Below, one piece after another: positions 3,474 to 3,795 of a DNA stretch of 64,000 nt. Both the position numbers and the translations under genes were made by a program. The notes beneath the pieces are model-generated. The model did not search any database and had not been told where the DNA came from. It saw only the letters and a list, made by a program, of their open reading frames with translations. How positions within the stretch are numbered: the stretch's first letter is position 1; every line of letters begins with the position of its first letter. Source of the stretch: a virus (lineage: Duplodnaviria; Heunggongvirae; Uroviricota; Caudoviricetes); the IMG/VR virus record IMGVR_UViG_638275541_000001; one strand, 5' to 3'.

Positions 3474-3795
3474 AACTAAAATACTTCATAATATGTATAA
3501 TTCAAACACCAATACATGAGCGTTAGACGTAACACAATGTGGGGAAATTTGTTGTACATATTCTGAATAGTTTTCGTTGCGTAGCGTCTATTTTGCAAAT
3601 TTAAAATAAATGCAAACGACAATGTTTTTCTGGCAGTAGCTTGATAGGCTAAACACCAGTGAGGTCTTCCAATCCCTCATCAAAGAATTTGGCGTACTAG
3701 CCCACGGTATGATTAATAAGGTGGGCAACATTCTAAAGGGTATCCCTTATGGGGCTTGGCTTAAATGCAATAAGTACCCTTTAAAATGTTAATTA

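What the first reader, a model, noticed from the sequence alone, without database searches (positions are those of the whole stretch)
3474..3795. Promoter-driven ~320-nt noncoding stretch with strong hairpins upstream of the atypical Arg-like tRNA
Downstream of the promoter at 3445-3473 there is no ORF of 20 aa or more with an RBS and no tRNA for about 320 nt, but several stable hairpins, for example AAAGGGTA...TACCCTT at about 3735-3782 and GCGTTAGACG/CGTCT pairs near 3530-3590. This is the longest non-tRNA, non-coding interval in the cluster.
Basis: seen in the sequence. Interest (0 to 1): 0.4.

Follow-up and report, generated by a model that had tools for sequence, protein, structure and literature searches.

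The report
Stand-alone tmRNA tag-template RNA in phages
The "empty" gap in this Felix O1-type phage tRNA cluster encodes a ~170-nt structured RNA that matches the messenger half of bacterial tmRNA (a start-less 10-codon degradation-tag frame, a stop-codon hairpin and two pseudoknots) but has no tRNA half, and the same unannotated module sits in hundreds of unrelated enterobacterial phages, prophages and phage-like plasmids.

Summary
The interval is real, promoter-proximal and structured, but it is not an anonymous hairpin stretch. [quoted passage not shown] It has the resume context AUAAAU|GCA, a 10-codon tag frame (ANDNVFLAVA) with tandem stops, a helix-5-like stop hairpin, and two H-type pseudoknots supported by compensatory changes.

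A covariance model built only from non-Felix phages finds it at 122 bits (E 4e-34), as the only hit in the window. The module occurs in 761 of 50,697 phage records, across Ounavirinae, Ackermannviridae, Schitoviridae, Chaseviridae and siphoviruses. It is also found in lambdoid prophages between Q and holin, and on ~110-kb plasmids, usually heading tRNA arrays.

There are 24 tag variants. All keep 10 sense codons plus a stop, and substitutions are enriched at third codon positions, so the frame appears to be decoded.

No tRNA-like domain belongs to the conserved unit. ARAGORN finds none, and Rfam tmRNA models stay below threshold.

Identity is well supported (~0.85). The mechanism is unresolved: a trans-translation template that needs an entry module in trans (~0.45), or a decoy (~0.3).

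I found no description of this form in the literature. Full phage tmRNAs and a tRNA-domain-only phage form are known.

The parts
3445..3473 (+). Sigma-70-type promoter (TTGACA, 17-nt spacer, TATAGT). The predicted transcription start is near 3480.
   Evidence: matches 11 of 12 positions. The same promoter directly abuts the AGUUUUCG motif in Felixounaviruses that lack the 91-nt insertion (L013, L064, L097, L119). Comparable -35/-10 pairs (by eye) sit just upstream of the motif in siphoviruses (BUCT541) and, less clearly, in a 115-kb plasmid. The start site itself is inferred, not measured.
3477..3567 (+). Optional 91-nt hairpin module ('module A') inserted between the promoter and the core.
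   Evidence: It is replaced by 'CT' in L013-type Felixounaviruses. It folds as a long imperfect hairpin. Phage SKA49 (Chaseviridae) and a Yersinia phage have a homologous block, and in SKA49 it again lies just upstream of the core.
3567..3739 (+). Conserved core: a stand-alone homologue of the tmRNA mRNA-like domain.
   Evidence: Model R1, built from 39 non-Felixounavirus sequences, scores 122.3 bits (E 4.4e-34) with a full-length match. It is the only hit in the 64-kb window. Sub-threshold Rfam hits: tmRNA RF00023 (E 0.0098) and tmRNA_permuted RF04321 (E 0.039).
3568..3611 (+). 5' region: the motif AGUUUUCG (3569-3576), short hairpins (UAUUUU 3589-3594 with AAAAUA 3603-3608), and the pre-resume sequence AUAAAU (3606-3611).
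   Evidence: AGUUUUCG and AUAAAU are conserved across families. In the other families RNAalifold predicts the hairpin CUUUGCGG/CCACAAAG, which ends 6 nt before the resume codon. That hairpin is almost invariant, so covariation cannot test it. The Felix hairpin was read by eye.
3612..3647 (+). Tag reading frame: GCA AAC GAC AAU GUU UUU CUG GCA GUA GCU = ANDNVFLAVA, followed by UGA UAG. There is no in-frame ATG/GTG/TTG from at least 3591 to the resume codon in Felix O1; in the other families an in-frame UAG lies 9 codons upstream with no such start after it.
   Evidence: Sequence. Across 87 unique elements there are 24 distinct tag sequences. All have 10 sense codons plus a stop, and UAA, UAG and UGA are all used. 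Differences by codon position are 544/532/1055. The same 14-mer, AUAAAUGCAAACGA, is the resume context of ARAGORN-called bacterial tmRNAs.
3630..3659 (+). Helix-5-like hairpin that encloses the last tag codons and the stop codon. Outer stem: CUGG 3630-3633 with CCAG 3656-3659. Inner stem: 3637-3641 with 3647-3651.
   Evidence: The outer stem is 100% paired, with a G-C to A-U compensatory change in 13-17 sequences. That change coincides with an Ala-to-Met codon change.
3660..3692 (+). Pseudoknot A (PK2-like). Stem 1: UGAGG 3660-3664 with CCUCA 3675-3679. Stem 2: CCAA 3669-3672 with UUGG 3689-3692.
   Evidence: Both stems are 99.5-100% paired. Each has two pairs with changes on both sides (UG/CA to CA/UG; CCAA/UUGG, CCGA/UCGG, CCAG/CUGG).
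3695..3726 (+). Pseudoknot B (PK3-like). Stem 1: UACU 3695-3698 with GGUA 3706-3709. Stem 2: GCCCAC 3700-3705 with GUGGGC 3721-3726. The conserved loop is UGAUUAAUAA.
   Evidence: One stem-1 pair occurs as C-G, G-C and U-A (29/5/5 sequences). Felix O1 adds a C-G to U-A change. Stem 2 differs in sequence and length between families, for example GACGGGAG/CUCCCGUC in Vi01.
3727..3790 (+). Variable spacer hairpin (AACAUUCUAAAGGGUA ...
   Evidence: MFE fold. The length varies by 28 nt among Felixounaviruses (spacing to the next tRNA is 161 or 189 nt). A 27-nt piece recurs upstream of the core in L010.
3796..3874 (+). Atypical tRNA-like gene that bounds the interval. It has no D arm, an anticodon loop CUUCUAA (UCU), a 23-nt variable region, an acceptor stem with G3:U70, A73 and an encoded CCA.
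   Evidence: Rfam tRNA 31.7 bits. ARAGORN does not call it. Two alleles differ by a compensatory change in the anticodon stem. Other Felixounaviruses carry a canonical tRNA-Arg(UCU) at this site, so it is not an obligatory partner of the core.

Best explanation
Window 3567-3739 encodes a stand-alone homologue of the mRNA-like half of tmRNA.

Expression (inferred): it is transcribed from the promoter at 3445-3473 as the first product of a tRNA operon. It is probably released by RNase P cleavage at the tRNA-like gene at 3796 and by cuts around the spacer hairpins.

Anatomy: the RNA presents an unpaired resume site (AUAAAU|GCA). This is followed by a 10-codon frame that encodes an ssrA-type degradation tag (ANDNVFLAVA), a hairpin holding the stop codon, and two pseudoknots.

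Most likely mechanism: the frame is really decoded, and the RNA serves as an alternative template for trans-translation-type tagging on stalled ribosomes during infection. The module has no tRNA-like domain, so entry into the ribosome must be provided in trans. Candidates are the host tmRNA-SmpB machinery or a phage tRNA-like RNA, such as the G3:U70 tRNA-like gene next to it in Felix O1.

Status of each step:
- Shown: identity, structure, conservation, and coding-type evolution of the tag frame.
- Inferred: expression, processing, and decoding.
- Unresolved: how the RNA enters the ribosome.
For: Similarity to tmRNA:
- Rfam local hits to tmRNA models fall exactly on the tag region, here and in four unrelated phages. 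RF00023 gives E 0.0098 and RF04321 E 0.039. RF04321 scores 21-31 bits in all four loci. In phage TR2, RF04321 gives E 0.00025 and beta_tmRNA positions 206-304 give E 0.0011.
- The 14-mer AUAAAUGCAAACGA is the resume context of bacterial tmRNAs that ARAGORN calls.
- E. coli ssrA nucleotides 54-129 align with the phage element.

Evolution of the tag frame:
- There are 24 distinct tag sequences. All have exactly 10 sense codons plus a stop, and all three stop codons are used.
- There are twice as many differences at third positions as at first or second positions.
- Single-nucleotide codon differences split 311 synonymous to 327 non-synonymous.
- The pattern A-N-[DE]-[DEN]-x-[FYVI]-L-[AMI]-[AV]-A is kept.
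- More divergent members keep it: ANDSEMRVAA in SKA49 and ANEEVYLAVA with UAA UAA on a plasmid.
- There is no ATG, GTG or TTG between an in-frame UAG nine codons upstream and the GCA (read).

Structure:
- 93.5% of cells are paired, against 87.7 +/- 0.4 in shuffles (0 of 500 shuffles reach the observed value).
- 96 cells have changes on both sides, against 39 +/- 6 in shuffles.
- Slid controls give 30-47% pairing.
- Four helices are at least 99% paired and carry compensatory changes.

Independent detection: model R1, built without any Felixounavirus sequence, gives 122.3 bits and E 4e-34.

Mobility and context:
- 761 phage records in at least five families hold the module.
- It is also found in a lambdoid prophage between Q and holin and on a 115-kb plasmid ahead of tRNAs.
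- These positions are consistent with a translation-support cassette.
Against: - No tRNA-like domain is part of the conserved unit. ARAGORN reports no tmRNA in the window or in about 125 related loci. All Rfam tmRNA scores are below gathering thresholds.
- My scan for acceptor/T-arm pairs finds only family-specific odd tRNA-like elements, without consistent G3:U70.
- The adjacent G3:U70 tRNA-like gene is replaced by an ordinary tRNA-Arg in other Felixounaviruses.
- Predicted duplex energy with E. coli tmRNA is no better than for shuffles: -89 against -88.8 +/- 5.9 kcal/mol. Docking on host tmRNA is therefore unsupported.
- No known mechanism loads a template that is not tethered to a tRNA-like domain.
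- PK1 is replaced by hairpins that are too invariant to test.
- I found no expression or proteomic data.
Confidence: 0.45

Rival explanations
1. A decoy without a tRNA domain. The RNA mimics the messenger and pseudoknot part of tmRNA. It titrates or blocks something that recognises that part (ribosomal protein S1, the 30S path of tmRNA, RNase R, SmpB contacts upstream of the resume codon). This would dampen or redirect host trans-translation during infection, without the RNA being translated.
For: The module has no tRNA-like domain. There is a precedent for a half-tmRNA in phage: mycobacteriophage DS6A carries little more than the tRNA-like domain, and a similar molecule strongly inhibits tmRNA, perhaps by titrating SmpB (PMC4131195). 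The upstream AUA, helix 5 and the pseudoknots are the RNA-level features that are kept.
Against: A pure binding mimic does not explain the following: exact retention of 10 sense codons, a stop that changes identity but never disappears, the excess of third-position changes, and conservation at the amino-acid level of an ssrA-type tag that differs from the host's ANDENYALAA. The sequence resembles host ssrA only over the tag region.
Confidence: 0.3
2. A cis-acting leader of the tRNA or late operon. The element would be a processing platform, stabiliser or attenuator whose resemblance to tmRNA is incidental to its role.
For: It is usually the first element after a promoter and ahead of tRNAs, or it lies in the late-operon leader. 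It is flanked by long hairpins that look like processing or spacer elements.
Against: In phage TR2 it is followed by an intrinsic terminator and no tRNA. It moves as a unit between unrelated contexts. The coding-type constraint on the tag frame is unexplained.
Confidence: 0.1
3. An ordinary mini-ORF. Ribosomes would initiate near the resume site and make free tag-like peptides, for example to saturate ClpXP/SspB.
For: The peptide-level conservation is compatible with this. An invariant AUG overlaps the resume site.
Against: The AUG is in the wrong frame. That frame gives peptides of 4-12 residues (as counted after the AUG) with radical changes (QTKKCIWQ, QTMMLF, and others). The tag frame has no ATG, GTG or TTG and no Shine-Dalgarno sequence. 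The same 14-mer occurs in genuine tmRNAs.
Confidence: 0.05
4. A non-functional relic of host ssrA picked up by imprecise prophage excision or recombination.
For: Fragments of ssrA in prophages have been reported and attributed to imprecise excision (PMC9004378).
Against: Such fragments come from the 3' tRNA-like end of ssrA, at the attachment site, and match the host. This element is internal to the tmRNA layout and differs from host ssrA outside the tag (R1 does not hit the E. coli ssrA locus). It shows compensatory evolution. It is kept in strictly lytic families.
Confidence: 0.03
5. A small protein encoded on the minus strand (47-aa ORF at 3588-3731).
For: The ORF exists. The minus strand is stop-poor in many relatives. 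A few database records annotate hypothetical proteins there.
Against: The frame is interrupted near +42 in BUCT541, pIS4-A and L015. Several homologues have no Met. The compensatory RNA changes produce radical amino-acid changes (MRDWKTSL versus TRSRKTLL).
Confidence: 0.02

Closest known systems
Bacterial tmRNA (SsrA; Rfam RF00023), for example E. coli ssrA
   Same: - A resume codon GCA preceded by an A/U-rich context, with A at -4 and U at -5.
- A start-less tag frame of 10 codons beginning A-N-D and ending in small or hydrophobic residues.
- A stop codon held in a helix-5-type hairpin.
- H-type pseudoknots downstream.

   Different: - There is no acceptor stem, T arm or CCA in the conserved unit.
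- There are only two downstream pseudoknots.
- Hairpins stand in place of PK1.
- The length is about 170 nt rather than about 360 nt.
- Scores are below the Rfam gathering threshold, and ARAGORN does not call it.
Coding piece of two-piece (permuted) tmRNA (Rfam RF01850 beta_tmRNA, RF04321 tmRNA_permuted)
   Same: This is the best Rfam similarity. In TR2, beta_tmRNA positions 206-304 align over the resume context, the tag and the first downstream stem, and the consensus CAUAAAUGC.AACGAUGA is nearly identical. It is a separate RNA that carries the template.
   Different: A real coding piece starts with the 5' acceptor strand and pairs with an acceptor piece encoded just upstream. No such strand or partner is conserved here.
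Mycobacteriophage DS6A tmRNA, which has only the tRNA-like domain; also the full tmRNAs of Bxz1-type mycobacteriophages, Bacillus phage G and marine myophages
   Same: These are phage-borne derivatives of the trans-translation RNA. DS6A shows that a half-molecule can be kept by a phage (PMC4131195; PMC9004378).
   Different: DS6A keeps the opposite half. The full phage tmRNAs are detected by ARAGORN, and this module is not. No messenger-only form is mentioned in the tmRNA database papers I could read.
Stable non-tRNA RNAs in phage tRNA clusters (T4 species 1 and 2 / rnaC, rnaD; small RNAs of the T5 tRNA region). This comparison is from my own knowledge and was not tested.
   Same: They are small stable RNAs co-transcribed with phage tRNAs and released by tRNA-processing enzymes. 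Their function is unknown.
   Different: I did not compare sequences. No tmRNA-like tag frame has been reported for them as far as I know.

Membership tests
tmRNA (SsrA) | tRNA-like domain: acceptor stem with G3:U70, T arm, 3' CCA, chargeable with alanine | tested here: not met
   ARAGORN finds no tmRNA in the window or in about 125 related loci, although it calls tmRNAs with the same resume 14-mer in bacteria. My acceptor/T-arm scan finds no conserved partner. The neighbouring G3:U70 tRNA-like gene (3796-3874) is self-contained and dispensable in relatives.
tmRNA (SsrA) | Start-less tag reading frame that begins at a resume codon (usually GCN) in a single-stranded A/U-rich context | tested here: met
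   AUAAAU|GCA is at 3606-3614. The context is identical to ARAGORN-called tmRNAs. It is unpaired in the RNAalifold consensus. There is no in-frame start codon (read).
tmRNA (SsrA) | The tag encodes a C-terminal degradation signal and evolves as coding sequence | tested here: met
   All 24 variants have 10 codons plus a stop. Differences by codon position are 544/532/1055. The pattern is AN[DE][DEN]x[FYVI]L[AMI][AV]A. Degron activity itself was not tested.
tmRNA (SsrA) | Helix 5 enclosing the stop codon, followed by pseudoknots | tested here: met
   The helix-5 outer stem and both stems of the first pseudoknot are 99.5-100% paired with compensatory changes. The first stem of the second pseudoknot is 99.4% paired, with three pair types at one position. 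There are two pseudoknots rather than three.
tmRNA (SsrA) | Pseudoknot PK1 upstream of the resume codon | tested here: inconclusive
   A hairpin (CUUUGCGG/CCACAAAG) is predicted instead. It is almost invariant, so covariation cannot test it.
tmRNA (SsrA) | Score at or above the Rfam gathering threshold for RF00023, RF01849-51 or RF04321 | tested here: not met
   The best scores are 20.3 bits here and 30.6 bits in TR2, against a threshold of 47. beta_tmRNA gives 18.7 bits against 84.
tmRNA (SsrA) | Function with SmpB and EF-Tu on stalled ribosomes | not testable with these tools
   This needs biochemistry or genetics.
Two-piece tmRNA coding piece | 5' acceptor strand and helix pairing with a co-encoded acceptor piece | tested here: not met
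   Predicted transcripts start 2-10 nt before AGUUUUCG in Felixounaviruses and siphoviruses, and probably on the plasmid. No complementary partner followed by CCA is conserved nearby.
Phage family defined here (model R1) | Full-length match to a covariance model built from other phage families | tested here: met
   122.3 bits, E 4.4e-34, model positions 1-177, at 3567-3739.

The most novel reading that the evidence does not exclude
Enterobacterial phages carry a split or hijacking form of trans-translation. A mobile, template-only half of tmRNA is decoded on rescued ribosomes, so the phage decides which tag stalled proteins receive. Entry would be supplied in trans, either by the host tmRNA-SmpB system or by one of the unusual tRNA-like RNAs that accompany the module. 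That would be a way of loading a template onto the ribosome that has no precedent.
Probability: 0.25. Interest if true: 0.92.

Novelty: new variant of a known kind. Interest (0 to 1): 0.8.

Why it matters
tmRNA is thought to work only because its tRNA half and its messenger half are tethered.

If a messenger-only half that evolves as if translated is functional, there are two possibilities. One is an unknown way to deliver a template to stalled ribosomes. The other is that phages use half-molecules to sabotage ribosome rescue, which would complement the tRNA-half-only form of mycobacteriophage DS6A. Either answer bears on how phages manage host translation quality control and ClpXP-dependent proteolysis.

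There are practical consequences too. The module is an unannotated, easily recognised RNA gene in well over 700 phage genomes, in about 6% of complete E. coli genomes (prophages and phage-like plasmids), and in phages considered for therapy and biocontrol (Felix O1 and Vi01-like phages). A covariance model for it could be added to annotation pipelines. The work also points to a wider, undescribed set of structured and tRNA-like RNAs arranged as cassettes next to phage tRNAs.

Tried and rejected
- **Rfam at gathering thresholds:** only tRNAs in the window. Related loci add only SIB, STnc100 and int-alpA elsewhere.
- **ARAGORN tmRNA search:** nothing in the window or the related loci.
- **Minus-strand 47-aa ORF:** rejected.
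- **AUG-frame mini-ORF:** rejected.
- **Pairing of the phage RNA with E. coli tmRNA:** duplex energies are equal to those of shuffles (one search timed out).
- **Search for a tRNA-like partner shared across families:** BLAST of the masked flanks finds no shared module apart from the core. The acceptor/T-arm scan finds only family-specific elements.
- **Reading the flanking stem CAGUGCUC.../...GAGCAUUG as an alanine-type acceptor helix with G3:U70:** dropped. The wobble becomes G-C in L058, and the flanks are absent in Felix, Vi01 and the promoter-proximal siphovirus versions.
- **PK1-type pseudoknot (GUUUU/GAAAC with CUUUG/CAAAG):** no covariation. RNAalifold prefers a simple hairpin.
- **Scan of genome contigs with the 14-mer:** mostly chance hits. 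It was useful only for showing that genuine tmRNAs share the resume context.
- **Pfam on the two Cys/His-rich ORFs beside the interval:** no hit.
- **Nine literature searches:** no description of the element or of its tag peptides.

Full report
**Source and setting.** The window is a Felix O1-type Salmonella phage. Positions 3430-3795 are 100% identical to phage FO1a. The finding lies in a cluster of 25 ARAGORN tRNAs. It sits between tRNA-Ile (3354-3429) and a weak, atypical tRNA that only Rfam calls (3796-3874, 31.7 bits).

**Checking the observation.**
- The promoter at 3445-3473 is a near-consensus sigma-70 site, matching 11 of 12 positions.
- Eleven mechanical ORFs of 20-53 aa overlap the region, and none is convincing.
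- The interval folds better than shuffles on both strands, with z about -3.7.
- The hairpin at 3735-3742/3775-3781 is real.
- The proposed GCGTTAGACG/CGTCT pairing is not in the MFE fold, and it spans two separate modules.
- The interval 2273-2700 is at least as long and also lacks a convincing gene.

**What the interval contains.** A permissive Rfam scan of 3400-3900 gave local hits to tmRNA models centred on 3592-3664: RF00023 at E 0.0098 and tmRNA_permuted RF04321 at E 0.039. Read in that frame, the sequence is AUAAAU GCA AAC GAC AAU GUU UUU CUG GCA GUA GCU UGA UAG. This is a start-less 10-codon frame encoding ANDNVFLAVA, followed by two stops (3612-3647). E. coli tmRNA encodes ANDENYALAA followed by UAA UAA, and ssrA nucleotides 54-129 align with the phage element. 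The 14-mer AUAAAUGCAAACGA is the resume context of bona fide bacterial tmRNAs that ARAGORN calls, with tags such as ANENYALAA and ANDENFAGGEAIAA and two permuted forms.

**Conservation far beyond relatives.** BLASTN showed that about 3603-3727 is conserved at 72-87% identity in phages that share nothing else with Felix O1. Carriers include:
- Vi01-like Ackermannviridae
- a Klebsiella siphovirus
- the Schitoviridae phage TR2
- Aeromonas phage pIS4-A
- later, a Chaseviridae phage

A query from a prophage copy matches 761 of 50,697 phage records. In E. coli, 338 of 5,426 complete genomes carry the element, with 97 places on chromosomes and 246 on plasmids. Host ssrA itself is not matched. In E. 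coli 55989 the element lies between the antiterminator Q gene and the holin gene of a lambdoid prophage. On a 115-kb plasmid it heads a tRNA cluster. All four test loci gave sub-threshold RF04321 hits. In TR2 the beta_tmRNA model aligns over the resume context, the tag and the first downstream stem.

**The family.** The tag frame is always 10 codons. The counts are ANDDVVLMAA 37, ANDNVFLAVA 23, ANEEMYLAVA 22 and ANDEQFLAVA 22, plus rarer variants.

Among 87 unique elements there are 24 distinct tag sequences:
- Every one keeps a stop at codon 11, and UAA, UAG and UGA all occur.
- Differences by codon position are 544, 532 and 1055.
- Single-nucleotide codon differences are 311 synonymous and 327 non-synonymous.

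The other + strand frames give peptides of variable length with radical changes. The minus-strand ORF (3588-3731) is interrupted or lacks a start codon in several families, and the RNA's compensatory changes alter its residues radically. Divergent members found with the covariance model keep the same design: ANDSEMRVAA in SKA49, and ANEEVYLAVA with UAA UAA on the plasmid.

**Structure.** I tested a hand-derived structure on two alignments (A1 with Felix, A2 without).
- On A2, 93.5% of cells are paired, against 87.7 +/- 0.4 in shuffles (0 of 500 reach the observed value).
- 96 cells show changes on both sides, against 39 +/- 6 in shuffles.
- Sliding the 3' partners drops pairing to 30-47% (one search is similar for A1).

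The supported helices are:
- The outer stem of a helix-5-like hairpin that encloses the last tag codons and the stop. A G-C to A-U switch here goes together with an Ala-to-Met codon change.
- Both stems of an H-type pseudoknot (UGAGG/CCUCA or CAAGG/CCUUG; CCAA/UUGG, CCGA/UCGG or CCAG/CUGG).
- The first stem of a second pseudoknot. One pair in it occurs as C-G, G-C and U-A, and Felix O1 adds a further C-G to U-A change.

RNAalifold independently recovers most of these helices. It leaves the resume codon and the first six codons unpaired. It predicts a hairpin (CUUUGCGG/CCACAAAG) ending 6 nt before the resume codon, which is too invariant to test.

A covariance model built from 39 non-Felixounavirus sequences finds window 3567-3739 at 122.3 bits (E 4.4e-34). 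This is the only hit in the 64-kb window. The model does not hit the E. coli ssrA locus.

**Anatomy in Felix O1.**
- Promoter: 3445-3473.
- A 91-nt hairpin insertion at 3477-3567. It is replaced by 'CT' in many Felixounaviruses, where the promoter directly abuts AGUUUUCG. A homologous block precedes the core in SKA49.
- The core: 3567-3739.
- A variable spacer hairpin: 3727-3790.
- The atypical tRNA-like gene: 3796-3874.

In Felixounaviruses and siphoviruses a promoter sits so that the transcript should begin within about 10 nt of AGUUUUCG, and a weaker candidate lies in the same position on the plasmid. This suggests that the motif marks the functional 5' end.

**The missing tRNA half.**
- ARAGORN reports no tmRNA anywhere in the family.
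- BLAST of the flanks with the core masked finds no second module shared across families.
- A scan for T arms with matching acceptor strands finds only family-specific, non-canonical tRNA-like elements without consistent G3:U70. Examples are 126- and 147-nt elements in Vi01, 130-150-nt elements in L043 and L073, and a widespread 'P2' module in siphoviruses and lambdoid prophages.
- The Felix O1 neighbour (3796-3874) does have G3:U70, A73 and CCA, lacks a D arm, and shows a compensatory change in its anticodon stem between alleles. Other Felixounaviruses have a normal tRNA-Arg(UCU) at that site.
- Predicted duplexes with E. coli tmRNA are no more stable than with shuffled sequences.

**Interpretation.** I regard the identity as well supported, at about 0.85-0.9: a stand-alone, mobile homologue of the tmRNA mRNA-like domain. 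The codon-level evidence makes decoding of the tag frame more likely than not.

My preferred mechanism is therefore a template for trans-translation-type tagging whose entry module is supplied in trans (0.45). How that happens is unresolved and has no precedent.

The main rival is a decoy without a tRNA domain (0.3). It would be the mirror image of the tRNA-domain-only RNA of mycobacteriophage DS6A, a type of molecule reported to inhibit tmRNA (PMC4131195). The decoy model does not explain the coding-type constraint on the tag frame.

The remaining alternatives are less likely, for the reasons given under the rival explanations: a cis-acting leader, an ordinary mini-ORF, an ssrA relic from imprecise excision (an origin mentioned in PMC9004378), and a minus-strand protein.

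**Novelty.**
- The tmRNA database papers list full tmRNAs in mycobacteriophages and in Bacillus phage G, plus the DS6A half. They describe pipelines that reject truncated candidates (PMC4131195; PMC11915505).
- A survey with ARAGORN found tmRNAs in 402 of 18,146 phage genomes (PMC9004378). That method cannot see this module.
- Nine full-text searches, including the tag peptide strings, found nothing.
- The library does not cover subscription journals, so earlier mention cannot be excluded.

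Noticed in passing
window 3796-3874 (+): The atypical tRNA-like gene has no D arm, anticodon UCU, a 23-nt variable region, and an acceptor stem with G3:U70 plus A73 and CCA. These are alanine-type identity marks on an Arg-anticodon tRNA. Two alleles differ by a compensatory G-C to U-A change in the anticodon stem. Other Felixounaviruses carry a canonical tRNA-Arg(UCU) at the same site.
   Followed up: partly
window 4378-4461 (+): A second non-canonical tRNA-like element (acceptor GGGAC/GUCCC, T arm GGGGUUCAACUCC, then GCCA) lies in the gap before tRNA-Ser. ARAGORN and Rfam gathering miss it. The only match is a weak tRNA-Sec-like hit (16.9 bits, E 0.63). The anticodon is unclear.
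   Followed up: partly
window 3477-3567 (+); L247 680-780: A 91-nt hairpin module is inserted between the promoter and the core in Felix O1 but is absent from many Felixounaviruses. A homologous block with a compensatory change and a conserved loop (AAUUCAAACACCA) precedes the core in Chaseviridae phage SKA49 and also occurs in a Yersinia phage.
   Followed up: partly
L006, L011, L016, L002, L003 and others, flanking the core: In siphoviruses and lambdoid prophages, conserved RNA modules are separated by hairpins of the form GGUAAGAGCAUUG-[variable insert of about 25-90 nt]-CAGUGCUCUUUCC. The stem covaries in TR2 (GAGUACA/UGUACUC). Some inserts contain a T arm. The layout looks like a cassette array of structured RNAs.
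   Followed up: partly
L002 about 1726-1855 and 20 other loci, 190-450 nt downstream of the core: 'P2' is a conserved tRNA-like module of 84-230 nt. It has a 9-bp closing stem (GUUGUGGUG/CACCACAAC), a 5' hairpin (GCGCAGGCUGAUGCGC, which covaries), a variable middle, and a 3' hairpin next to the closing stem that is a canonical T arm in L043. No Rfam family matches it.
   Followed up: partly
L001 (Vi01) 726-3096: About 2.4 kb of phage Vi01 has no annotated gene. It contains the core, long hairpins with inserts, and at least two long non-canonical tRNA-like elements that ARAGORN and Rfam do not call (147 nt upstream; 126 nt downstream ending in UCCA).
   Followed up: partly
window 2866-3360 and 3893-4240 (+): Two Cys/His-rich ORFs lie between tRNAs. 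By eye they resemble HNH homing endonucleases (CxxC ... HH ... N ... CxxCH), but Pfam gives no match at E 0.001.
   Followed up: partly
window 2273-2700: Another 428-nt stretch of the tRNA cluster has no tRNA and only a 76-aa minus-strand ORF. It was not examined for RNA genes.
   Followed up: no
L053 1118-1331 (-); L011 264-330 (-); L008 1709-1862 (-): Rfam families above threshold near the module in relatives: STnc100 about 1 kb downstream in a Vi01-like phage, int-alpA RNA about 350 nt downstream in a lambdoid contig, and SIB RNA in L008.
   Followed up: no
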